A DNA stretch of 40,445 nucleotides, taken from the IMG/VR virus record IMGVR_UViG_2541047760_000006; one strand, written 5' to 3'. The notes below the pieces were generated by a model. It saw only the letters and a program-made list of their open reading frames with translations, ran no database searches and had not been told where the DNA came from. The first letter of the stretch is position 1. The number at the start of each line of letters is the position of its first letter. The stretch is from a virus. Taxonomy: Duplodnaviria > Heunggongvirae > Uroviricota > Caudoviricetes. This document shows positions 1 to 22,985 of the stretch, one piece after another. Position numbers and translations under genes: made by a program.

Positions 1-183
1 GGCTGGGCCATACTCCTCCGGCAGAAGCAGAAAAAGCTTATTATGCTTCCATCGGAAACGATGATCTGGCAGCCTGAGTTCACAGATAAAACACTCTCCA
101 GGAAACCCGGGGCGGTTCACTTCGTCTGTTTCTACTGGTATTGGCACAAACCTGACTCCAATTTGAGCAAGGCTATGTGCCAT
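1..183 (-). CDS. hypothetical early-left protein, N-terminal part only (runs off window start)
   Basis: ATG at 181-183 on the minus strand opens a frame (MAHSLAQIGVRFVPIPVETDEV...) with no stop before position 1. Sits just downstream of orf60a in the pL operon. No family recognised. Confidence 0.3.
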   Translation of the reverse strand, partial: MAHSLAQIGVRFVPIPVETDEVNRPGFPGECFICELRLPDHRFRWKHNKLFLLLPEEYGPA

Positions 184-197
184 CTCAATACTCGTTC

Positions 198-386
198 TTA
201 ACTCAACAGGAGATGCTTTGTGCATACCGCCTCCCGTTTATTATTTATCTTCTCAGCCAGCCGCTGTGCTTTCAGTGGATTTCTGATAACAGAAAGGCCG
301 GGAAATACCCAGCCTCGCTTTGTAACGGAGTAGACGAAAGTGATCGCGCCTACCCGGATATTATCGTGAGGATGCGTCATCGCCAT
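198..386 (-). CDS. lambda orf60a-like small protein
   Basis: 62-aa translation [33 protein letters not shown]... is near-identical to lambda orf60a as I recall it; lies immediately downstream of exo. Confidence 0.75.
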
Positions 387-2360: not shown

Positions 2361-2493
2361 TTTTTGGGACTCCTGGCTGATTAAGTATGTCGATAAGGCG
2401 TTTCCATCCGTCACGTAATTTACGGGTGATTCGTTCAAGTAAAGATTCGGAAGGGCAGCCAGCAACAGGCCACCCTGCAATGGCATATTGCAT
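2329..2493 (-). CDS. cIII: cIII (FtsH protease inhibitor, stabilises cII)
   Basis: Not in the ORF track (54 aa). Reverse complement of 2401-2493 reads ATG CAA TAT GCC ATT GCA GGG TGG CCT... = MQYAIAGWPVAGCPSESLLERITRKLRD..., the lambda cIII sequence; stop at 2329-2331 overlaps the kil start. Confidence 0.85.
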   Translation of the reverse strand: MQYAIAGWPVAGCPSESLLERITRKLRDGWKRLIDILNQPGVPKNGSNNYGYPD

Positions 2494-2565
2494 GGTGTGC
2501 TCCTTATTTATACATAACGAAAAACGCCTCGAGTGAAGCGTAATTGGTATGCGGTAACGCCGCGC

Positions 2566-3530: not shown

Positions 3531-4112
3531 ATGAACAACTCATGGTGGCAGGAACTAATGCATTTTTTCCTGCAAGGAATGACACTTAAACAGTTGATTC
3601 ATATGCTAATCATCCTGATCATATTGATTATTGTTATGCCGGTAAGCGTAAAAGAATGGATAAACCTGCATAGTCCAGAAATCCTTCCTCATTACTGGAT
3701 GTATTACATCCTGTTGTTTTGCGTTAGCTATGTGCTTAACGGCGTTGTTAATTCCGCTTATCACGCTGTGACTGAAAGAATTGAGGTATTCGCTGCTCAG
3801 AAGCGCAAATCTAAAGAAGAAAAATATGTGCAAGATTTGTTTGATTCGTTAACTCTTGGAGAAAGAGCGTATTTGGCATTCGCTGTAGCCGCTAATAACC
3901 AGCTACAAACGGAAAAGGGCGCTCATGAATCAATTTCATTGCTCAAAAAAGGACTCCTCGTTCGAAGGCCTCCTGCTGTTGGATATCCTGATACCGACCG
4001 TTTCGTTATCCCTGAAAGCTATAGACATGAGTGCTACATTAGGTTTGCCGGGAAGGCAGACAGCCTTATGGATGAACTTATCGCTCAGGATAAGCATGGC
4101 AAAAACAAGTAA
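3531..4112 (+). CDS. sieB: SieB superinfection-exclusion (abortive infection) protein
   Basis: 193-aa translation MNNSWWQELMHFFLQG... with hydrophobic N-terminal segments; lambda sieB-like in sequence, size and opposite-strand position between ral and N. ATG at 3531 follows an aaagag purine stretch. Confidence 0.85.
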   Translation: MNNSWWQELMHFFLQGMTLKQLIHMLIILIILIIVMPVSVKEWINLHSPEILPHYWMYYILLFCVSYVLNGVVNSAYHAVTERIEVFAAQKRKSKEEKYVQDLFDSLTLGERAYLAFAVAANNQLQTEKGAHESISLLKKGLLVRRPPAVGYPDTDRFVIPESYRHECYIRFAGKADSLMDELIAQDKHGKNK

Positions 4113-7311: not shown

Positions 7312-7611
7312 ATGGAAAGAACAAGTTACAGCAAACTATCACAGCGTGACGTTGATCGCGCAGAAACAGATTTACTTATCAATCTGTCAGCTATTACCCA
7401 GCGCGGTCTGGCAAAGATGATTGGCTGTCATGAATCGAAGATAAGCAGAACGGACTGGAGATTTATTGCTTCGGTCTTGTGTGCTTTCGGAATGGCATCA
7501 GACATCAGTCCGATTAGCAGGGCTTTTAAGTATGCGCTTGATGGACTCACCAATAAAAAACGCCCGGTGTGCAAGACCGAGCGTTCTGATCAAATACAAA
7601 TGGAATTTTAA
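7312..7611 (+). CDS. cII: CII transcriptional activator
   Basis: 99-aa translation ends ...LTNKKRPVCKTERSDQIQMEF, closely matching the lambda cII C-terminus (ILTNKKRPAATERSEQIQMEF). Confidence 0.92.
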   Translation: MERTSYSKLSQRDVDRAETDLLINLSAITQRGLAKMIGCHESKISRTDWRFIASVLCAFGMASDISPISRAFKYALDGLTNKKRPVCKTERSDQIQMEF

Positions 7612-7633
7612 CAACATCCAACGAGGTAATTAT

Positions 7634-7906
7634 ATGCGAAACAAAGGCTTTAATCCACCTGATACACACAAAGAAGCTAAGCGTTTGCGCTTCCTTCGTT
7701 CCATTGATGAAAGAACTCAAATCTCTTTTGTGAAAGTTGCCAGAACTGAGCTTCTGAAGGCTGAGGCGAGGGCGTTGCTCCCGTCTCTGCCAAAAGAGGA
7801 GGGATATACGGCCATTCCAAACGCATTTCTGGAAAAGCTGCTCAAAGAAGACATATCCGTAAGTCAGTTTAACGATGTTCTTAAGGTCTTTCGTCAAGGC
7901 AGGTAG
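7634..7906 (+). CDS. hypothetical protein between cII and the replication initiator
   Basis: Internal ATG at 7634 preceded by gagg; 90-aa product MRNKGFNPPDTHKEAKRLRFLRSIDERTQISFVKVARTELLK...; no family recognised. Confidence 0.55.
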   Translation: MRNKGFNPPDTHKEAKRLRFLRSIDERTQISFVKVARTELLKAEARALLPSLPKEEGYTAIPNAFLEKLLKEDISVSQFNDVLKVFRQGR

Positions 7907-7908
7907 TT

Positions 7909-8856
7909 ATGAGCAATACAGCAAAAATCTACGATTTCAGCGCCGCACACGAGCGCAGGAGCAACAGGATGGAGAACCAGAAAACTGGTTACATTCCGTT
8001 GTACCGGAGCATTCTGAAACAGTCATGGGCGAAAGATGTTTATCTTCGCACCCTGTGGGAAAACCTTCTCCTGAATGCCGCCAGAAAGCCATACAAAGCG
8101 AATTTCAAAGGTCATGAATGGCATCTGCAACCCGGTCAACTGGTTGTGACAGCAGCTGATTTAGGTCTTCAGTTATGCGACAGGCATGGCAAGCCGGCAA
8201 GCCGTGATCAGGTTGAGCGGATGCTTCAGGTTTTTGTGAAAGAGGGGATGATCACCATTGATGGAGAGAAGCAAAAAGGTCGTGTGATTACCATCACAAA
8301 TTACCATGAATATGCTCAAAAAATGGACGATTCGCCAGCACATGAAGCCGCACAAACAACCGCACATGATGCCGCACATGACGAAGCCAGTAATGGCGCG
8401 GCTTTCAGCGTACATGCCGCACATGAAAGCGCACATGAAGCCGCACAAACAACCGCACATCATGAACAAGAAGGTATTAACAAGAATATAAATAATACCC
8501 CCCTACCCCCCAATGGGGGAGGCGATGGGCAGGTTAAACCTGAACGTCGCAAGGCAGAACGAATCGACTACGAATCCTTCCTGAACGCCTACAACACCGA
8601 AGTCGGTGACAGACTTCCACACGCTGTTGCGGTCAACGAGAAACGCAAACGCCGCCTGAAGAAAATCATCCCGCAACTGAAAACGCCAAATGTGGACGGT
8701 TTCAGAGCGTATGTCAGGGCGTTTGTGCATCAGGCCAAGCCGTTTTACTTCGGAGACAACGACACGGGCTGGACGGCTGATTTTGATTACCTGCTGAGGG
8801 AAGATTCGTTAACGGGAGTACGGGAAGGGAAGTTTGCAGACAGGGGGATTGCATGA
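7909..8856 (+). CDS. replication initiator / replisome organiser (O-like, P22 gene 18 analogue)
   Basis: 315-aa ORF directly upstream of and overlapping (ATGA) the DnaB-like helicase gene; contains a low-complexity linker ([18 protein letters not shown]...) encoded by direct DNA repeats, as in origin-containing initiator genes. Confidence 0.85.
8335..8520 (+). repeat. putative origin of replication: iteron-like direct repeats plus AT-rich tract inside the initiator gene
   Basis: The 27-mer catgaagccgcacaaacaaccgcacat occurs at 8341-8367 and 8443-8469; at least five copies of ccgcacatga-type units lie between; followed by AT-rich 8471-8497 and inverted repeat ccccc/ggggg at 8506-8519. Confidence 0.6.
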
Positions 8857-10229
8857 GACAGGATATCGAAGCGAGCGTTATCGGTGGCCTGCTGATTGGT
8901 GGATTAACACCAACCGCCAGCGACGTTCTGGCAACGCTGGAGCCGGAAGCGTTTTCAATTCCGCTCTACCGGAAAGCCTTCGAGGTTATCCGCAAGCAGG
9001 CGCGAAACAGAAACCTAATCGACGCGCTGATGGTTGCCGAGGAGTGCGGAGAGGAGCATTTCACGTCAATCCTGATGACCAGCAAAAACTGCCCGAGTGC
9101 CGCAAACCTGAAGGGATATGCCGGAATGGTCGCGGATAACTATCACCGCCGTCTGGTGCTGGAAATCATGGATGAAATGCGTGAACCAATCCAAAGCGGA
9201 ACCATCGACGCATCGAGTCAGGCGATGGATGAGCTTGTAAAGCGTCTTTCAGCCATCAGAAAGCCCCGTGACGAGGTTAAACCTGTACGGTTAGGGGAAA
9301 TCATCACCGACTACACTGACACGCTTGACAGGCGTCTGAGGAACGGAGAAGAGTCCGATACCCTGAAGACCGGAATCGAAGAACTTGATGCCATCACCGG
9401 AGGGATGAACGCGGAAGACCTGGTGATAATCGCCGCTCGTCCTGGTATGGGTAAAACCGAACTGGCGCTGAAGATTGCCGAAGGCGTTGCAAGTCGTGTT
9501 ATTCCTGGTTCTGACATCCGGCGTGGAGTATTGATTTTCTCAATGGAAATGAGCGCATTACAGATTGCAGAGCGAAGCATTGCCAACGCCGGGAGGATGT
9601 CGGTTAGCGTACTGCGAAATCCTGCATCGATGGATGACGAGGGCTGGGCGCGTGTTGCTAACGGCATGAGTCAGCTTGCAGATTTGGATGTATGGGTAGT
9701 CGATGCCTCGCGGTTATCGGTCGAAGAAATACGCTCAATCGCAGAACGGCACAAACAGGAAAATCCAAACCTGTCACTCATCATGGTGGATTATCTTGGC
9801 CTGATTGAGAAGCCGAAAGCAGATCGCAACGACCTCGCAATTGCTCACATCTCCGGAAGCCTGAAGGCGATGGCGAAAGACCTGAAAACACCGGTTATCT
9901 CCCTGAGTCAGCTTTCGCGCGATGTTGAGAAGCGACCAAACAAACGCCCGACAAACGCAGATTTGCGTGATTCAGGAAGCATTGAACAGGACGCAGACTC
10001 AATCATCATGCTCTATCGGGAAGCGGTATATGACGAGAACAGTAGCGCCGCGCCATTTGCTGAAATCATCGTGACGAAAAACCGTTTTGGCTCACTTGGT
10101 ACGGTTTACCAGCGGTTCTGCAACGGACACTTTGTTGCATGTGACCAGGATGAAGCCAGGCAGATTTGCACAGCATCAAATGCACCTGCTGCACGTGGCA
10201 GACGATATGCACAAGGGGCTGACGTATGA
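8853..10229 (+). CDS. DnaB-family replicative helicase (P22 gene 12-like)
   Basis: 458-aa product with Walker [10 protein letters not shown], Walker [10 protein letters not shown] and DnaB C-terminal motifs ([17 protein letters not shown]); same length as P22 gp12. Confidence 0.95.
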
Positions 10230-10301
10230 CCATCTACATCACTGAGCTAATAACAGGCCTGCTGGTAATCGCAGGCCTTTTTATTTGGGGGAGGGTAAAT
10301 C

Positions 10302-10508
10302 GTGGCTGAGTTAATTTTCTCTGCATTGAGGATTCTCGGTGCTATGTGGATGGTGGCGACGTTCATTGTTGTTGCCAGCAGTTTTGTCCGGTTGGTAGGC
10401 GAAGGTAAAGACCTGGTGGGTGTGCTTTTCGGTAGCATTCTCATGTGGGTGATTATCGGTGTTATGCCTGTCGCTGTAGCAAAAATGGCGTGGCGTTTTG
10501 TGAGTTGA
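10302..10508 (+). CDS. small hydrophobic (two-TM) nin-region protein
   Basis: 68-aa ORF with a GTG start after ggggaggg RBS; predicted membrane micro-protein (MAELIFSALRILGAMWMVATFIVV...). Confidence 0.5.
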   Translation: MAELIFSALRILGAMWMVATFIVVASSFVRLVGEGKDLVGVLFGSILMWVIIGVMPVAVAKMAWRFVS

Positions 10509-10525
10509 ACTGAGGGTAAGTATCG

Positions 10526-10840
10526 ATGGACGAATCAAGAAAGCAGTTTGAAGAAAGTTGGTTGCGACGTGGGGGCGAATCTTCAGACCTTATCCGTTAC
10601 CCTGAAAATCACCATGAAATTGGCAGCGGTAATATTGGTGGTCAATACGTGATGGACGATGTTCAAGGCCACTGGCAAACGTGGCAGGCATCGAGAGCAG
10701 CTATTGAAATTGAGCTGCAAAAGCCAAAGAAAGGCCCACTTCCCGGTGATTATCACATTGGCTATGACACAGGTGCAGAATCACAATACGAAAGCGATGT
10801 AGAGGCCATCCGCACTGCTGGAGTCAAAGTGAAGGAGTGA
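10526..10840 (+). CDS. hypothetical nin-region protein
   Basis: 104-aa ORF, ATG start, tightly packed with neighbours; no family recognised. Confidence 0.6.
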   Translation: MDESRKQFEESWLRRGGESSDLIRYPENHHEIGSGNIGGQYVMDDVQGHWQTWQASRAAIEIELQKPKKGPLPGDYHIGYDTGAESQYESDVEAIRTAGVKVKE

Positions 10841-10842
10841 GT

Positions 10843-11007
10843 ATGAGCGCATACGAAGAAATCATGTTAGCCCTGCGATTCTTTTTCGGTGTGGAAGAAG
10901 ATGAAAACGTAAATGAGATTATCGGGCAAGACCATGACCCGATAGGGACTATTGCAGCTGCACTTGACGATTACAGGAGCGTAAATGGTGAGGAAACTAA
11001 CGTTTGA
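10843..11007 (+). CDS. small hypothetical protein (54 aa)
   Basis: Not in the ORF track. ATG at 10843 after gaaggag RBS; MSAYEEIMLALRFFFGVEEDENVNEIIGQDHDPIGTIAAALDDYRSVNGEETNV; overlaps the ninB start. Confidence 0.35.
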   Translation: MSAYEEIMLALRFFFGVEEDENVNEIIGQDHDPIGTIAAALDDYRSVNGEETNV

Positions 11008-11428
11008 ACTAAGAAGCCCCATCCATCAGCAGAACGCCATTCAAGCTATCCAGCAAATCCTTCCAGACCCAATCAAACCAATCGTAGTAACCATTCAGGA
11101 ACGCAACCGCAGCTTAGACCAAAACCGAAAGCTTTGGGCTTGCCTTGGTGACGTCTCTCGTCAGGTTGAATGGCATGGTCGCTGGCTGGATGCAGAAAGC
11201 TGGAAGTGTGTGTTTACCGCAGCATTAAAGCAGCAGGATGTTGTTCCTAACCTTGCCGGGAATGGCTTTGTGGTAATAGGCCAGTCAACCAGCAGGATGC
11301 GTGTAAGCGAATTTGCGGAGCTATTAGAGCTTATACAGGCATTCGGTACAGAGCGTGGCGTTAAGTGGTCAGACGAAGCGCGACTGGCTCTCGAATGGAA
11401 AGCGCGATGGGGAGATCGGGCTGCATGA
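10985..11428 (+). CDS. ninB: NinB (Orf recombination mediator)
   Basis: 147-aa translation MVRKLTFELRSPIHQQNAIQAIQQILPDPIKPIVVTIQERNRSLDQNRKLWACLGDV... is near-identical to lambda NinB. Confidence 0.95.
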   Translation: MVRKLTFELRSPIHQQNAIQAIQQILPDPIKPIVVTIQERNRSLDQNRKLWACLGDVSRQVEWHGRWLDAESWKCVFTAALKQQDVVPNLAGNGFVVIGQSTSRMRVSEFAELLELIQAFGTERGVKWSDEARLALEWKARWGDRAA

Positions 11429-13832: not shown

Positions 13833-14915
13833 TTAGAACTGATAAACCAGACCTACAGCGACGATGTCGTCGGTATCAATACCAGCTGTTTTGGTAAACT
13901 TACTATCGTCAATTAAGTTGATTTTGTAATCAACAAAAGTGGACATGTTTTTATTAAAGTAGTAAGTAGCACCGACATCGACATACTTGACTAAGTCTCG
14001 GTCACCATGAACACCAAGGTCTTTACCTTTTGACTGAAGGTAAGCAACAGATGGACGCAGACCGAAGTCAAACTGATATTGTGCTACTGCTTCAAAGTTT
14101 TGTGCTTTGTTTGCAATATGGTTATTACCAAAAACGGTCATATTCTGAGTTTCAGAATATGTGGTAGCCAGATAGATATTGTTCGCATCATATTTCAGGC
14201 CTGCAGCCCATACTTCCGCATTTTTGCCGGAGGCATTGAATTTGCTCTTACCATAGGCGACCTGACCGTCAGTGCGATCTGATTTAGCATAGGTTGCACC
14301 CACGCCGAATCCTTCATACTCATAAGTAGTGGAGAAACCGAAACCATCACCATTGGCTTCAGTTACGTCAGTGCGGTCATTTTTACCCTGATACTGAGCA
14401 GCAAAGTTCAGGCCATCGACCAGACCAAAGAAGTCGTTGTTACGATAAGTTGCAACACCAGTAGTGCGACCAGTCATGAACACATCTGTTTGGGTCCAGG
14501 TATCACCACCGAATTCTGGCAGAACGTCAGTCCACGCACCGATGTCGTATGCTACACCGTAGTTACGGCCGTAATCGATTGAGCCGTAATCACCAAATTT
14601 CAGGCCTGCAAATGCAAGACGGGTTTTGTCTTTGGAAGAACCTTGAGATTCAGCACGGTTGCCTTTGAATTCATATTCCCACTGACCGAAACCAGTCAGT
14701 TGATCGTTGATTTGGGTTTCACCTTTGAAGCCAAGACGGGCATAAGTAGTATCACCATCATCTGCATCATTAGAGGAGAAGTAGTGCTTGGCATTAACTT
14801 TCCCGTATAGATCCAGCTTGTTACTGTCTTTATTATAAATTTCAGCTGCCTGAGCAGACATCGCCATCAGTACTGATGCAGCTACAGCAGAAATTGCCAC
14901 TGTTAATTTTTTCAT
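13833..14915 (-). CDS. nmpC: OmpC/OmpF-family general porin (NmpC / Lc-like, phage-borne)
   Basis: Signal peptide [23 protein letters not shown] then [17 protein letters not shown]... and C-terminal ...VAVGLVYQF, classic enterobacterial porin features. Start taken at the internal ATG 14913-14915. AT-rich upstream region 14916-15300. Confidence 0.95.
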
Positions 14916-16705: not shown

Positions 16706-16999
16706 TTATTGTGAGCAATACACACGCGCTTCCAGCGGAGTATAAATGCCTAAAGTAATAAAACCGAGCAATCCATTTACGAATGTTTGCTGGGTTTCTG
16801 TTTTAACAACATTTTCTGCACCACCACAAATTTTTGCTGCATCGACAGTTTTCTTCTGCCCAATTCCCGAAACGAAGAAATGATGGGTGATGGTTTCCTT
16901 TGGTGTTACTGCTGTAGGTTTGTTTCCAACAGTAAACGTCTGTTGAGCACATCCTGTAATAAGCATTGCCAGAGCGGCAGAAAACAACATTTTTTTCAT
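16706..16999 (-). CDS. bor: Bor outer-membrane lipoprotein (serum-resistance lysogenic conversion factor)
   Basis: Start at internal ATG 16997-16999: MKKMLFSAALAMLITGCAQQTFTV...GIYTPLEARVYCSQ, near-identical to lambda Bor; lipobox LITGC. Confidence 0.95.
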   Translation of the reverse strand: MKKMLFSAALAMLITGCAQQTFTVGNKPTAVTPKETITHHFFVSGIGQKKTVDAAKICGGAENVVKTETQQTFVNGLLGFITLGIYTPLEARVYCSQ

Positions 17000-17479: not shown

Positions 17480-17806
17480 ATGAAAAGACGCCTTTTACTA
17501 CTTTTTCTGTTATCTGTCCTGGCAGTGGGATGCTCGCAGCAAAAAGCTGATGAGCCCCGGCAATTAGTGACGGTGTATCCACGATATCCGGAATATGCTG
17601 CAGCAAATTATATCAAGGGGCTGGTTGAGGTTAAGTTCGATATTGGTGCTGATGGGACTGTGACACGGATCGTTTTTCTCCGCTCAGAGCCTCATAATTT
17701 GTTTCGTGATGAAGTGGTGAAGGCCATGGCGAAATGGCGATTTGAAAAGAATCGCCCCTGTCAGGGAGTGAAGAGACAATTTATCTTTACGCCGTCACGT
17801 CCTTGA
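17480..17806 (+). CDS. small lipoprotein with TonB C-terminal-like domain
   Basis: Internal ATG at 17480; signal/lipobox MKRRLLLLFLLSVLAVGC; mature part YPRYPEYAAANYIKGLVEVKFDIGADGTVTRIVFLRSEPHNLFRDEVVKAMAKWRFE aligns with the TonB C-terminal domain pattern (YP..A....I.G.V.V.F.I..DG.V.......S.P...F...V..A...WRF). Confidence 0.75.
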   Translation: MKRRLLLLFLLSVLAVGCSQQKADEPRQLVTVYPRYPEYAAANYIKGLVEVKFDIGADGTVTRIVFLRSEPHNLFRDEVVKAMAKWRFEKNRPCQGVKRQFIFTPSRP

Positions 17807-18757: not shown

Positions 18758-19306
18758 ATGAAGGTTAATAAAAAGAGGCTTGCCGAAATTTTCAACGTGG
18801 ACCCGCGGACGATTGAACGCTGGCAGTCTCAGGGACTCCCTTGCGCCTCCAAAGGTAGTAAGGGCATTGAATCTGTATTTGATACTGCCATGGCAATTCA
18901 GTGGTATGCGCAGAGGGAAACTGATATCGAAAACGAAAAGCTCCGCAAAGAACTGGACGATTTGCGTGCGGCAGCGGAGTCAGATTTACAACCCGGCACC
19001 ATTGACTATGAACGCTACCGGCTCACAAAAGCGCAGGCAGATGCGCAGGAACTGAAAAATGCCCGTGAAGACGGAGTAGTGCTGGAAACTGAACTGTTTA
19101 CCTTCATTCTGCAACGTGTGGCACAGGAGATTTCGGGGATACTTGTGCGTGTGCCGTTGACATTACAGCGTAAATATCCGGACATTTCACCATCACACCT
19201 TGATGTGGTGAAAACTGAAATCGCGAAAGCCTCCAATGTTGCAGCTAAGGCCGGTGAAAACGTGGGCGGGTGGATCGATGATTTCAGACGCGCAGAAGGC
19301 AGCTAA
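18758..19306 (+). CDS. nu1: terminase small subunit Nu1
   Basis: 182-aa translation [28 protein letters not shown]...[48 protein letters not shown] matches lambda gpNu1. Confidence 0.95.
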
Positions 19307-21206
19307 TGCAGCCGGTGCGATAGCTACAGGGCTTTTATCTCTCATTATTCCTGTTCCACTGACGACAGTTCAGTGGGCCAATAAACATTATTACCTTCCT
19401 AAAGAGTCGTCTTATACCCCGGGGCGATGGGAAACACTGCCGTTTCAGGTTGGCATCATGAACTGTATGGGCAACGATCTGATTCGCACGGTTAACCTGA
19501 TTAAATCTGCCCGTGTTGGTTATACAAAGATGTTGCTGGGAGTGGAGGCTTATTTTATTGAGCATAAATCACGCAACAGCCTTCTTTTTCAGCCCACGGA
19601 CTCAGCTGCTGAAGATTTTATGAAATCTCATGTTGAGCCAACGATAAGGGATGTTCCTGCATTGCTGGAGCTGGCTCCATGGTTCGGAAGAAAACACCGC
19701 GATAATACGCTCACCCTGAAGCGTTTTTCCTCCGGTGTGGGGTTCTGGTGTCTGGGTGGTGCGGCAGCAAAAAACTACCGTGAAAAATCCGTGGATGTGG
19801 TCTGTTATGACGAGCTTTCCTCGTTCGAACCGGATGTTGAAAAAGAGGGTTCGCCAACCCTGCTGGGGGATAAACGTATTGAGGGCTCTGTATGGCCAAA
19901 ATCCATTCGCGGCTCGACGCCTAAAATCAAAGGCTCCTGCCAGATCGAAAAAGCCGCTAACGAGTCGGCACACTTCATGCGTTTTTATGTGCCCTGTCCG
20001 CACTGTGGGGAGGAGCAGTATCTGAAATTTGGCGATGATGCCTCGCCTTTCGGTCTTAAGTGGGAGAAGAATAAGCCAGAAAGTGTTTTCTACCTTTGTG
20101 AGCATCATGGCTGTGTGATCCATCAGTCTGAGCTTGACCAGAGTAACGGGCGGTGGATCTGTGAAAACACGGGCATGTGAACCCGTGACGGCCTGATGTT
20201 TTTCAGCGCCCGGGGTGATGAAATTCCGCCGCCGCGCTCCATCACTTTCCATATCTGGACGGCGTACAGTCCGTTCACCACCTGGGTACAGATTGTCTAT
20301 GACTGGCTGGATGCACTGAAAGATCCCAACGGCCTGAAAACCTTTGTGAACACCACGCTGGGCGAGACCTGGGAAGAGGCTGTGGGCGAAAAACTCGATC
20401 ACCAGGTGCTGATGGATAAGGTTGTGCGTTACACGGCGGCGGTGCCTGCCCGGGTGGTTTATCTGACGGCGGGCATTGACTCGCAGCGAAACCGTTTTGA
20501 GATGTATGTCTGGGGATGGGCTCCGGGAGAGGAAGCCTTTCTGGTGGATAAAATCATCATTATGGGGCGTCCCGATGAGGAAGAGACGCTGTTACGTGTG
20601 GATGCGGCGATCAACAAAAAATACCGCCATGCAGACGGAACCGAAATGACCATTTCCCGTGTCTGCTGGGACATCGGGGGGATCGATGGCGAAATCGTTT
20701 ATCAGAGGTCAAAAAAACACGGTGTTTTCCGGGTGCTGCCGGTAAAAGGCGCATCTGTCTATGGCAAGCCGGTGATCACCATGCCAAAAACCCGCAATCA
20801 GCGGGGCGTTTATCTGTGTGAAGTGGGGACGGACACCGCAAAAGAAATTCTCTATGCCCGTATGAAAGCCGATCCCACGCCTGTGGATGAAGCCACGTCG
20901 TATGCCATCCGTTTTCCTGATGATCCGGAGATTTTTTCGCAGACAGAGGCGCAGCAACTGGTCGCGGAAGAGCTTGTGGAGAAGTGGGAAAAAGGAAAGA
21001 TGCGTCTGCTGTGGGATAACAAAAAGCGGCGTAACGAAGCGCTGGACTGCCTGGTGTATGCCTACGCGGCATTACGTGTGTCCGTGCAACGCTGGCAGCT
21101 TGATCTGGCTGTACTGGCAAAATCCCGGGAAGAAGAGACGACCCGGCCAACCCTTAAAGAACTGGCAGCGAAGCTGTCCGGAGGAGTGAATGGTTACAGT
21201 CGCTGA
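19278..21206 (+). pseudogene. A: terminase large subunit gpA interrupted by an in-frame TGA (20178-20180)
   Basis: Track ORFs 19236..20180 and 20196..21206 are in the same frame (offset 960 nt) and together align with lambda gpA across the break: ...RWICENTGM-*-TRDGLMFFSARGDEIPPPRSITFHIWTAYSPFTTWVQIV. The TGA sits where lambda has Trp (TGG). Likely start is the ATG at 19278. Confidence 0.85.
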
Positions 21207-21396
21207 ACTGCAGGCGCTGCGTCAGGCGCGCCTTGATTTATTAACCGGTAAACGGGTGGTGTCTGTCCAGAAAGATGGTCGCAGAATTGAATATACGGCG
21301 GCTTCTCTGGATGAGCTTAACCGGGCGATCAATGATGCGGAGTCGGTACTGGGGACAACCCGGTGTCGCCGTCGTCCGCTGGGAGTGAGCTTATGA
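21190..21396 (+). CDS. W: head-tail joining protein gpW
   Basis: 68-aa product with LLTGKRVVSVQKDGRRIEYTAASL, matching lambda gpW ([23 protein letters not shown]). Confidence 0.9.
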   Translation: MVTVAELQALRQARLDLLTGKRVVSVQKDGRRIEYTAASLDELNRAINDAESVLGTTRCRRRPLGVSL

Positions 21397-22985
21397 AACG
21401 AACGCCTGTCCTGATTGATGTGAACGGCGTTCCGCTTCGTGAGAGTCTCAGCTACAACGGGGGCGGTGCAGGATTTGGCGGGCAAATGGCGGAGTGGTTG
21501 CCACCGGCGCAGAGTGCCGATGCGGCCCTGCTGCCCGCGTTGCGTCTGGGGAATGCCCGGGCAGATGATCTGGTGCGCAATAACGGAATAGCGGCTAATG
21601 CGGTGGCTCTGCATAAGGATCACATTGTCGGGCATATGTTTCTGATCAGCTACCGTCCGAACTGGCGCTGGCTGGGGATGCGGGAGACCGCAGCAAAAAG
21701 CTTTGTCGATGAGGTGGAGGCGGCCTGGTCAGAATACGCAGAAGGGATGTTTGGTGAGATCGACGTGGAAGGGAAACGCACGTTTACGGAATTTATCCGT
21801 GAAGGTGTGGGCGTTCATGCGTTTAACGGCGAAATCTTTGTGCAGCCGGTCTGGGATACGGAGAGCACGCAACTGTTTCGTACGCGTTTTAAAGCCGTGA
21901 GTCCGAAACGGGTGGACACGCCTGGACACGGTATGGGGAACCGTTTTCTGCGGGCCGGTGTGGAGGTCGATCGATATGGCCGTGCCGTCGCGTACCATAT
22001 CTGTGAGGATGATTTTCCTCGCTCCGGGAGTGGACGATGGGAACGGATCCCGCGTGAACTTCCCACCGGGCGTCCGGCCATGCTGCATATTTTCGAGCCG
22101 GTGGAGGACGGGCAGACCCGTGGGGCCAACCAGTTTTACAGCGTCATGGAACGGCTGAAGATGCTCGATTCCCTGCAGGCAACACAGCTTCAGTCGGCCA
22201 TAGTGAAGGCGATGTATGCAGCGACGATTGAAAGTGAACTTGATACCGAAAAGGCCTTTGAATATATCGCCGGCGCGCCACAGGAGCAGAAGGATAATCC
22301 GCTTATTAATATTCTGGAGAAGTTTTCCAGCTGGTATGACACGAATAACGTGACGCTGGGCGGTGTCAAAATTCCGCACCTTTTCCCTGGTGATGATCTG
22401 AAACTACAGACTGCGCAGGATTCAGACAATGGATTTTCGGCGCTTGAACAGGCGCTGCTGCGGTATATCGCCGCCGGTCTTGGTGTTTCCTACGAACAGT
22501 TGTCCCGTGATTACTCGAAGGTCAGTTATTCAAGTGCCCGCGCCTCCGCCAATGAGTCGTGGCGCTATTTTATGGGACGACGAAAATTTATTGCGTCCCG
22601 GCTGGCCACGCAGATGTTTTCCTGCTGGCTGGAAGAGGCACTTCTTCGGGGGATTATTCGTCCGCCACGGGCACGTTTTGATTTTTATCAGGCGCGTTCA
22701 GCCTGGTCACGGGCTGAGTGGATTGGTGCCGGAAGAATGGCCATTGACGGGCTCAAGGAGGTTCAGGAATCGGTGATGCGTATTGATTCCGGACTGAGCA
22801 CGTATGAGAAAGAGCTGGCGCTGATGGGCGAGGATTATCAGGACATTTTCCGCCAGCAGGTCAGGGAATCTGCAGAGCGGGAAAAAGCCGGACTCTCACG
22901 TCCGGTGTGGATAGCGCAGGCGTATCAGCAGCAGATAGCGGAGAGTCGCAGGCCGGAAGAGGAGACAACACCACGTGAGACGTAA
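21393..22985 (+). CDS. B: portal protein gpB
   Basis: Start at internal ATG 21393 (overlaps W stop); long conserved blocks with lambda gpB (FEPVEDGQTRGAN.FYSVME, LQSAIVKAMYAATIESELDT, LRYIAAGLGVSYEQLSR). Confidence 0.95.
   Translation: MKRTPVLIDVNGVPLRESLSYNGGGAGFGGQMAEWLPPAQSADAALLPALRLGNARADDLVRNNGIAANAVALHKDHIVGHMFLISYRPNWRWLGMRETAAKSFVDEVEAAWSEYAEGMFGEIDVEGKRTFTEFIREGVGVHAFNGEIFVQPVWDTESTQLFRTRFKAVSPKRVDTPGHGMGNRFLRAGVEVDRYGRAVAYHICEDDFPRSGSGRWERIPRELPTGRPAMLHIFEPVEDGQTRGANQFYSVMERLKMLDSLQATQLQSAIVKAMYAATIESELDTEKAFEYIAGAPQEQKDNPLINILEKFSSWYDTNNVTLGGVKIPHLFPGDDLKLQTAQDSDNGFSALEQALLRYIAAGLGVSYEQLSRDYSKVSYSSARASANESWRYFMGRRKFIASRLATQMFSCWLEEALLRGIIRPPRARFDFYQARSAWSRAEWIGAGRMAIDGLKEVQESVMRIDSGLSTYEKELALMGEDYQDIFRQQVRESAEREKAGLSRPVWIAQAYQQQIAESRRPEEETTPRET

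What the first reader, a model, noticed from the sequence alone, without database searches (positions are those of the whole stretch)
20178..20180. In-frame opal (TGA) codon inside the large terminase gene at a conserved Trp position
The two track ORFs 19236..20180 and 20196..21206 are in the same frame and together reconstitute gpA; the only interruption is TGA where lambda has TGG (lambda ...KTGIWTRDG..., here ...NTGM*TRDGLMFF...). The stop is followed by A, a context that in E. coli favours UGA read-through. Either the prophage is packaging-defective (cryptic) through a single nonsense mutation, or terminase is made at low level by read-through, or this is a base-call error.
Basis: seen in the sequence. 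Interest (0 to 1): 0.7.

Follow-up and report, generated by a model that had tools for sequence, protein, structure and literature searches.

The report
Nonsense-mutated terminase gene in prophage
A single G-to-A change has put a real, inherited stop codon in the middle of the DNA-packaging (large terminase) gene of a lambda-like prophage, an ordinary step in prophage decay that public annotation already flags as a pseudogene in sister genomes.

Summary
TGA at 20178-20180 is codon 301 of a 642-codon lambda gpA-type large terminase gene (19278-21206, +). It is the only interruption, both halves are in one frame, and the next base is A. Lambda gpA and nearly identical E. coli alleles have TGG (Trp) there.

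It is not a base-call error. The same TGA is in three independently finished genomes (HM670, KE51, AHB19), where PGAP marks the gene "pseudogene, internal stop". The exact 300-aa N-fragment occurs on 154 public contigs.

It is a rare, derived allele: 3 records against about 484 with the TGG version of the same local sequence. Its carriers share an IS3 insertion at the same site, and the three finished genomes also have the replication gene O broken by IS3.

No recoding signal was found: no SECIS-like hairpin, no Rfam hit, no tRNA gene, and no conservation of the stop.

Best reading: an inherited opal nonsense mutation that removes the nuclease and portal-binding half of terminase, leaving the prophage packaging-defective. 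Low-level natural UGA read-through by tRNA-Trp would restore the wild-type residue. That is chemically plausible but unsupported as a function. The finding is ordinary and of low interest.

The parts
19278..21206 (+). Lambda gpA-type large terminase gene (642 codons), interrupted by one in-frame TGA; a pseudogene by PGAP's criteria
   Evidence: Pfam GpA_ATPase at residues 46-293 and GpA_nuclease at 323-601. 67% identity to lambda gpA. Gap-free match to the intact ABU 83972 gene with an internal stop at codon 301 only. The identical allele is annotated 'internal stop' in HM670, KE51 and AHB19.
20178..20180 (+). Opal codon TGA = codon 301, derived from TGG (Trp) by a third-position G-to-A transition; next base is A
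   Evidence: CFT073 and APEC E12053 have TGG. Lambda has Trp301. The 81-nt context is exact in only 3 of 1743 matching records.
19278..20180 (+). N-terminal ORF, 300 aa: Nu1-binding end plus the ATPase domain. This is the product expected when translation terminates at the TGA.
   Evidence: Pfam. The exact product is called as a gene on 154 public contigs.
20196..21206 (+). Downstream in-frame ORF from Met307, 336 aa: nuclease domain plus the C-terminal end. Gene finders call it, but there is no evidence that it is translated and no clear Shine-Dalgarno sequence in the 15 nt between the stop and the ATG.
   Evidence: The exact product is on 67 contigs. Met307 is not conserved: lambda has Leu, and the column is mostly gap in the family alignment.
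18758..19306 (+). Nu1-type small terminase gene, intact, overlapping the start of the large subunit gene
   Evidence: 100% identical to the ABU 83972 gene. Pfam Phage_Nu1.
21190..22985 (+). gpW and portal genes immediately downstream, both open. They lie in a recombinant patch 2-4% divergent from the sister prophages.
1..119 (.). End of an IS3-family element that cuts the DUF1382 gene. The same insertion site occurs in the other TGA carrier HM670, so it is a shared derived marker. In the source scaffold it follows a 1075-N gap.

Best explanation
A real, vertically inherited opal nonsense mutation (TGG to TGA, Trp301stop) in the large terminase gene of a lambda-like prophage of a CFT073/ABU 83972-type E. 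coli.

Termination at codon 301 gives a roughly 34-kDa fragment carrying the Nu1-binding end and the ATPase domain. The fragment lacks the endonuclease domain and the C-terminal portal-binding end. Without those parts cos cannot be cut and DNA cannot be docked to proheads. The prophage is therefore packaging-defective, or at best strongly hypomorphic through background UGA read-through.

Shown here: the mutation, its derived and rare state, its presence in many independent assemblies, its position between the two Pfam domains, and the absence of recoding signals. Inferred: the loss of packaging function, which follows from established knowledge of lambda gpA domain functions and lambda A nonsense mutants, not from a test on this allele.
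For: - The TGA is in frame and is the only defect in the gene.
- The ancestral state is TGG. Lambda has Trp301. CFT073 and APEC E12053 have TGG in alleles differing by only 1-4 other bases. 487 complete-genome records match the TGG version of a 102-nt context with at most 1 mismatch, against 3 records with the TGA version.
- The allele was sequenced independently many times. HM670 (USA), KE51 (USA) and AHB19 (UK) are finished genomes, all flagged 'internal stop' by PGAP. The exact 300-aa product is on 154 contigs in NCBI, ENA and Logan.
- Carriers look clonally related. The window and HM670 share the same IS3 insertion in the DUF1382 gene. TGA-bearing terminase genes differ from one another by only 1-3 bases.
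- Decay context. HM670, KE51 and AHB19 match IS3 transposase twice within the first 20 kb. In HM670 I read one copy as lying in the replication gene O, and HM670 also has IS3 in gpJ. The sister lineage CFT073 has different IS hits but TGG. ABU 83972 keeps an apparently intact copy.
- No recoding apparatus. There is no significant downstream structure (z = -1.59), no Rfam family other than the cIII thermoregulator and no tRNA gene in the window.
- The stop lies at residue 301, between GpA_ATPase (46-293) and GpA_nuclease (323-601), so the whole nuclease half is lost.
Against: - In the window itself every other gene mapped from ABU 83972 is open: 54 CDS were mapped, and only DUF1382 (cut by the IS) and terminase are broken. 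There is therefore no independent sign in this copy that virion genes are under relaxed selection.
- UGA is the leakiest stop in E. coli and is read mainly as Trp, which here would restore the wild-type protein (PMC11126739). A K-12 strain gave about 2% at 37 C and 4% at 25 C on one reporter (PMC10570021). 'Null' may therefore be 'leaky'.
- Too few substitutions have accumulated since the mutation to test for loss of constraint: 2 synonymous and 1 non-synonymous (I466T) among the copies seen.
- No functional test was possible.
Confidence: 0.85

Rival explanations
1. Functional leaky stop. Near-cognate decoding of UGA by tRNA-Trp restores authentic Trp301 terminase in a few per cent or less of translations. 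That would be enough for the prophage to keep packaging at low efficiency, making it attenuated rather than dead.
For: - UGA is the most read-through stop in E. coli reporters, and Trp is the main residue inserted (PMC11126739).
- About 2-4% read-through was measured in K-12 BW25113 (PMC10570021).
- The residue restored would be the wild-type one.
- All other virion genes visible in the window are open.
- The allele is common enough to be found on 154 contigs.
Against: - The stop is derived, rare and confined to related carriers, and hundreds of near-identical alleles keep TGG.
- There is no stimulatory structure or signal.
- The measured read-through values come from K-12, which the paper itself notes has an unusually weak RF2. 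Natural isolates are expected to terminate better (my own knowledge).
- The finished TGA carriers carry other lesions, at least one of them plausibly disabling (O::IS3; J::IS3 in HM670), so packaging is not being preserved there.
- The allele's abundance is explained equally well by hitch-hiking in a successful clone.
Confidence: 0.1
2. Two-piece terminase. Ribosomes terminating at 20180 re-initiate at ATG 20196, 15 nt downstream. The ATPase half (1-300) and the nuclease half (307-642) are then made separately and assemble into an active enzyme.
For: - The stop falls between the two Pfam domains, in the 294-322 stretch.
- The next in-frame ATG is six codons later.
- Gene finders call both halves.
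Against: - There is no recognisable Shine-Dalgarno sequence in ACCCGUGACGGCCUG.
- Met307 was present before the mutation and is not conserved in the family, so nothing has adapted to a split.
- In my alignment of 110 full-length homologues of 580-720 aa the two domains lie on one chain. I did not search systematically for naturally split versions.
- Residues 301-306 (WTRDGL) would be lost.
- To my knowledge no lambda-type terminase works as separate halves.
Confidence: 0.02
3. Sequencing or assembly error in the source draft genome; the real codon is TGG.
For: The source is a short-read scaffold assembly with N gaps (GCA_000457695.1). A single-base difference is the typical form of such errors.
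Against: - The same base is found in three finished genomes from other laboratories.
- The exact truncated product is on 154 contigs, including Logan re-assemblies of raw runs.
Confidence: 0.01
4. Programmed recoding of UGA as selenocysteine or another amino acid.
For: None beyond the presence of an in-frame UGA.
Against: - There is no SECIS-like stem-loop 3' of the UGA, and the fold is not better than shuffles (z = -1.59; 13 of 200 shuffles fold as well).
- No Rfam match at the site.
- Homologues have Trp or another aromatic residue, not Cys or UGA.
- No tRNA gene in the window.
Confidence: 0.005

Closest known systems
The same allele in RefSeq: K8B93_RS10460 (E. coli HM670), U8P20_RS12180 (KE51), AC9VTI_RS19095 (AHB19), annotated 'phage terminase large subunit family protein, pseudogene, internal stop'
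   Same: Identical TGA at codon 301. The terminase gene differs from the window by two synonymous bases (20810, 20906). It is the same prophage, with the same IS3 insertion in the DUF1382 gene.
   Different: Those copies keep a lambda-type O/P/ren module with IS3 inside O, and HM670 has IS3 in gpJ. The window has a P22-type replication module and a divergent W-to-E head-gene patch.
Bacteriophage lambda gpA (terminase large subunit, NP_040581.1) and classical lambda A nonsense mutants
   Same: Same family with both Pfam gpA domains, 67% identity, the same Nu1-A-W-B gene order, and Trp301 aligned. A premature stop upstream of the nuclease domain is expected to abolish cos cleavage and packaging, as in lambda A amber mutants in non-suppressing hosts (established knowledge).
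   Different: Here the stop is a natural opal codon fixed in a chromosomal prophage lineage, not a laboratory amber mutant. Its phenotype is untested.
Intact sister prophages next to sitABCD in E. coli ABU 83972 (NC_017631.1) and CFT073 (NZ_CP058222.1)
   Same: Most genes are 100% identical to the window, with the same cargo (iss/bor, OmpC-like porin, TonB_C protein).
   Different: Their terminase genes have TGG and are annotated as intact proteins WP_001304453.1 and WP_001335577.1. CFT073 has its own, different IS insertions.
Cryptic lambdoid prophages of E. coli K-12 (DLP12, Rac, Qin): prophage decay by IS insertion, deletion and point mutation
   Same: The process is the same: IS hits plus inactivating point mutations in morphogenesis or replication genes, with cargo genes retained (established knowledge; for this family).
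   Different: This one is at a very early stage. The window copy is essentially full length, with only two visibly broken genes.
Programmed UGA read-through (RNA phage Q-beta A1 protein) and selenocysteine UGA (fdhF-type SECIS)
   Same: An in-frame UGA that tRNA-Trp can in principle decode.
   Different: In those systems the UGA is conserved and required and, for selenocysteine, is followed by a SECIS hairpin. Here the UGA is derived, rare and lacks any signal.

Membership tests
Lambda gpA-type large terminase | N-terminal GpA_ATPase domain and C-terminal GpA_nuclease domain on one reading frame | tested here: met
   With Trp restored at codon 301, PF05876 matches residues 46-293 (E 8.8e-57) and PF20454 matches 323-601 (E 7.2e-71).
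Lambda gpA-type large terminase | Uninterrupted ORF giving a single polypeptide of about 640 aa | tested here: not met
   In-frame TGA at codon 301. This is a disrupted member of the family, i.e. a pseudogene.
Lambda gpA-type large terminase | Gene order Nu1 - A - W - portal (B), with the A start overlapping the Nu1 end | tested here: met
   Phage_Nu1, gpA halves, gpW and Phage_portal_2 are called in that order. The overlap is 29 nt, against 26 nt in lambda.
Pseudogene by nonsense mutation in a decaying prophage | The stop is a derived state, absent from close and distant homologues | tested here: met
   TGG in CFT073, E12053 and ABU 83972; Trp in lambda. Only 3 records have the exact TGA context, against 487 with the TGG context at no more than 1 mismatch. 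W or another aromatic residue occupies most ungapped positions in the family column.
Pseudogene by nonsense mutation in a decaying prophage | The mutation is real, i.e. reproduced in independent sequencing | tested here: met
   Three finished genomes, and 154 contigs carrying the exact truncated product from NCBI, ENA and Logan.
Pseudogene by nonsense mutation in a decaying prophage | Other inactivating lesions in the same element or lineage | tested here: met
   IS3 in the DUF1382 gene in the window and HM670. IS3 in O and in gpJ in HM670. The window copy itself shows no further broken gene.
Pseudogene by nonsense mutation in a decaying prophage | Loss of function (no packaging) | not testable with these tools
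   This needs induction and packaging assays. It is inferred from the loss of the nuclease domain and C-terminus and from knowledge of lambda gpA.
Pseudogene by nonsense mutation in a decaying prophage | Relaxed selection downstream of the stop | tested here: inconclusive
   Only 3 substitutions were seen among the TGA copies: 2 synonymous and 1 non-synonymous, I466T.
Programmed stop-codon read-through | Stop codon conserved at that position among relatives | tested here: not met
Programmed stop-codon read-through | Stimulatory context or downstream RNA structure | tested here: not met
   The fold of 20166-20250 is not distinguishable from shuffles (z = -1.59). The UGA sits in the loop of a trivial 6-bp hairpin. 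There is no Rfam hit. The +4 base is A, and its effect could not be quantified here.
Selenocysteine recoding | SECIS stem-loop immediately 3' of the UGA, and Cys/Sec in homologues | tested here: not met
Sequencing artefact | Variant unique to one assembly | tested here: not met

The most novel reading that the evidence does not exclude
The opal codon acts as a natural attenuator. Because tRNA-Trp is the main near-cognate reader of UGA, read-through regenerates exactly wild-type terminase at a low level that depends on temperature and nutrients. The otherwise intact window prophage would then remain inducible and transmissible at low frequency, or be packaged by a co-resident prophage's terminase, while costing its ExPEC host fewer lytic bursts. 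That could help explain why the allele persists in a successful clone.
Probability: 0.06. Interest if true: 0.4.

Novelty: already known. Interest (0 to 1): 0.1.

Why it matters
It matters little biologically. It is one datable step in the decay of a virulence-gene-carrying prophage (iss/bor, an OmpC-like porin, next to sitABCD) in a CFT073/ABU 83972-type E. coli lineage, and it serves as a clonal marker for a sublineage.

It has some practical use. GenBank records of draft genomes list the two halves as two separate 'large terminase' proteins (for example the adjacent accessions EQR16959.1 and EQR16960.1). Prophage predictors that count hallmark genes may therefore score this element as intact when it probably cannot package DNA.

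Tried and rejected
- **Second, independent stop at codon 300/301.** A 153-aa database protein (P0243) ends in ...NTGM. It turned out to be a 461-nt contig that simply ends one base after codon 300. Rejected.
- **SECIS or read-through structure.** The fold is no better than shuffles and there is no Rfam hit. Rejected.
- **Phage-borne suppressor tRNA.** There is no tRNA gene in the window. Rejected.
- **Solved structure to place Trp301.** No PDB chain matches by sequence. I did not run a structure prediction, because only shallow alignments (at least 81% identity) were admissible, and the Pfam boundaries already place the stop between the domains.
- **O::IS3 as the lesion preceding the TGA.** This is not shown. 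CFT073, which has TGG, has an intact O and different IS hits. The window has no IS in its replication module, which is of another type. The order of O::IS3 and the TGA within the carrier clade is therefore unresolved.
- **dN/dS after the stop.** There are too few substitutions.
- **Exact look-up of the 315-aa replication protein.** It is not on record with that start codon. The helicase was used instead.
- **Donor of the head-gene patch.** Other prophages encode the identical portal protein but are only about 95% identical in DNA, so no donor was identified.

Full report
**1. The observation**

The window reads ...AAC ACG GGC ATG TGA ACC CGT GAC GGC CTG ATG..., with TGA at 20178-20180 and A at 20181. 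The mechanical ORFs 19236..20180 and 20196..21206 are in the same frame. Translating 19236-21206 gives one internal stop in 657 codons.

The biologically likely start is ATG 19278. PGAP uses it in every relative, and it overlaps the Nu1-type small-subunit gene by 29 nt, as lambda A overlaps nu1 by 26 nt. On that numbering the gene has 642 codons and the stop is codon 301.

With Trp restored, Pfam finds GpA_ATPase at residues 46-293 and GpA_nuclease at 323-601. The stop therefore lies between the two domains.

**2. Is the TGA real, and what is the ancestral state?**

A megablast of 81 nt centred on the TGA against 5,426 complete E. coli genomes matched 1,743 records. Only three were exact: HM670, KE51 and isolate AHB19 (NZ_OZ546918).

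Their terminase genes are identical to one another. They differ from the window at two synonymous sites, 20810 and 20906. CFT073 and APEC E12053 carry alleles differing by 4 and 1 other bases and have TGG, and ABU 83972 is also intact. The TGG version of a 102-nt context matches 487 records with at most one mismatch, and these include the three TGA records.

Outside the finished genomes, the exact 300-aa N-terminal product is indexed in 242 blocks of the assembly collection and was seen on 154 contigs from NCBI, ENA and Logan. Some come from the Broad 'HVH' isolates. The exact 336-aa downstream product was seen on 67 contigs, and each intact allele on at least 1,000.

The window itself is identical over 9,593 and 20,229 nt to scaffold KE699911.1 of GCA_000457695.1. 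A base-call error is therefore excluded. This is a real, rare, derived G-to-A transition.

**3. Context: the prophage and its relatives**

The window is a lambda-like prophage that in finished relatives lies beside sitABCD. I mapped 54 annotated genes of the apparently intact ABU 83972 copy onto the window. Nearly all are 100% identical and all are open except two:
- the DUF1382 gene, cut at window position 120 by the end of an IS3-family element;
- the terminase gene.

The IS3 junction is collinear with that of HM670. The window and the finished TGA carriers therefore share a second derived character, consistent with a single origin of the TGA allele.

In HM670 the replication gene O and the tail gene J are also split by IS3. 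KE51 and AHB19 likewise match IS3 twice in the first 20 kb. CFT073, which has TGG, has a different set of IS insertions: IS3 between ren and ninB, ISEc10 in ead, and IS3 in xis.

The picture is of sister lineages of one prophage decaying independently. The terminase stop is one such lesion.

**4. Features particular to the window copy**

The window differs from its sisters in two recombinant tracts.
- Positions 7462-11072 span the cII 3' end, an O-like replication protein, a DnaB-like helicase, small ORFs and the ninB 5' end. This tract replaces lambda-type O/P/ren and is 100% identical to a P22-like prophage on another scaffold of the same assembly. It is either inter-prophage gene conversion or a short-read assembly artefact.
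- From about 20810/21279 to about 25950 (W, portal, protease, D, E) the window is 2-4% divergent from ABU and HM670. The changes are mostly synonymous and all ORFs are open.

Neither tract reaches the TGA.

**5. Tests for recoding**

- RNA folding of 20166-20250 is no better than shuffled sequence (z = -1.59; 13 of 200 shuffles fold as well). The UGA sits in the loop of a 6-bp hairpin, and nothing resembles a SECIS element 3' of it.
- Rfam at gathering thresholds finds only the lambda cIII thermoregulator at 2448-2506 on the minus strand.
- There is no tRNA gene in the window.
- The stop is not conserved in any relative examined.
- In a MAFFT alignment of the query with 110 diverse full-length homologues (mostly 31-54% identical) the column is W 41, gap 34, Y 13, F 6, I 4. 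The position is aromatic but lies in an indel-prone inter-domain stretch, and no homologue has Cys as the common residue there.

**6. Mechanism**

*Shown:* translation that terminates at codon 301 yields the N-terminal 300 residues, the ATPase domain, and omits the whole nuclease domain and the C-terminus.

*From established knowledge of lambda gpA, not tested here:* the C-terminal half carries the cos-cutting endonuclease, the extreme C-terminus binds the portal, and lambda A nonsense mutants do not package DNA in non-suppressing hosts.

*Inferred:* the prophage cannot mature or package its DNA. The lysis, replication and cargo genes remain open.

**7. How leaky could it be?**

In K-12 reporters, premature TGA is the most read-through stop and Trp is the residue mainly inserted. 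Rates range from undetectable to several per cent and rise in the cold and under nutrient scarcity. T after the stop strengthens termination and G weakens it. The authors note that K-12 has an inefficient RF2 (PMC11126739). Another reporter gave about 2% at 37 C and 4% at 25 C in BW25113 (PMC10570021).

Read-through here would recreate wild-type terminase. That is the one mildly interesting twist, but it is a property of any Trp-to-opal mutation. Nothing indicates selection for it, and natural isolates are expected to terminate at UGA better than K-12 (my own knowledge).

A termination-reinitiation route to a two-piece enzyme via ATG 20196 is conceivable. It lacks a Shine-Dalgarno sequence, Met307 predates the mutation, and Met307 is not conserved.

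**8. Comparison and verdict**

The locus is a disrupted member of the lambda gpA terminase family. The identical allele is already recorded as a pseudogene in RefSeq. It is neither programmed read-through nor selenocysteine recoding, since the defining features of both were tested and not met, and it is not an artefact.

Only three substitutions distinguish the TGA copies I saw: two synonymous and one I466T. Relaxed constraint can therefore be neither shown nor excluded.

My confidence that this is an inherited nonsense mutation making terminase null or nearly so is 0.85. I put 0.1 on read-through being biologically meaningful, and 0.02 or less on each of the other readings. Novelty: already known. 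Interest: low, 0.1.

Noticed in passing
window 7462-11072: The replication module (cII 3' end, O-like replication protein, DnaB-like helicase 8853-10229, three small ORFs, ninB 5' end) is 100% identical to a co-resident P22-like prophage on scaffold KE699913.1 of the same assembly (L028). It replaces the lambda-type O/P/ren of ABU 83972 and HM670. It is either recent inter-prophage gene conversion or a short-read assembly artefact.
   Followed up: partly
window ~20810/21279-25950: The W, portal, S49 protease, D and E genes are 2-4% divergent from ABU 83972 and HM670, mostly at synonymous sites, and all ORFs are open. This is a recombination tract starting about 0.6-1.1 kb 3' of the TGA. Prophages encoding the identical portal protein have intact terminase and a different 169-aa small subunit, but are only about 95% identical in DNA.
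   Followed up: partly
window 1-225; L031 72-1146: The window starts with the last 119 nt of an IS3-family element that truncates the DUF1382 gene. In the source scaffold this is preceded by a 1,075-N gap. The insertion site is the same as in HM670.
   Followed up: yes
window 2448-2506 (-): Rfam Lambda_thermo, the cIII thermoregulator RNA, scores 88.5 bits. It is the only Rfam family found in the window.
   Followed up: no
window 8338-8381 and 8417-8460: Two arrays of 12-nt tandem repeats (3.7 copies each) lie inside the O-like replication protein gene, where they encode His/Ala-rich repeats. They look like origin iterons.
   Followed up: no
window 13833-14915 (-), 16706-16999 (-), 17480-17806 (+), 3531-4112 (+): Host-affecting cargo genes are all intact and identical to ABU 83972: an OmpC-like porin, iss/bor serum-survival lipoprotein, a TonB_C-domain protein and sieB.
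   Followed up: no
L025 (CFT073, NZ_CP058222.1 2962000-2990000): The CFT073 copy of the same prophage keeps TGG terminase but has its own lesions: IS3 between ren and ninB, ISEc10 in the ead gene, and IS3 in xis. This is independent decay in a sister lineage.
   Followed up: yes
L032 (GCA_017737975.1 contig DADSCT010000238.1, 461 nt): This short contig of another terminase allele ends one base after codon 300, just before the polymorphic base. That may reflect an assembly-graph branch where TGG and TGA copies, or two prophage copies, coexist in that sample.
   Followed up: partly
protein cluster holding P0121: The 90%-identity cluster containing the 300-aa terminase fragment has an Alistipes putredinis GH57/alpha-amylase protein as its representative and many such members. 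This is a clustering oddity of the database, not biology of the window.
   Followed up: no
HM670, KE51, AHB19 genomes (places_in_record 3, 3, 2): Each finished TGA carrier holds one or two further gpA-type terminase homologues elsewhere in the chromosome. These could complement the defect in trans or act as recombination donors. Their small-subunit/cos compatibility was not examined.
   Followed up: no
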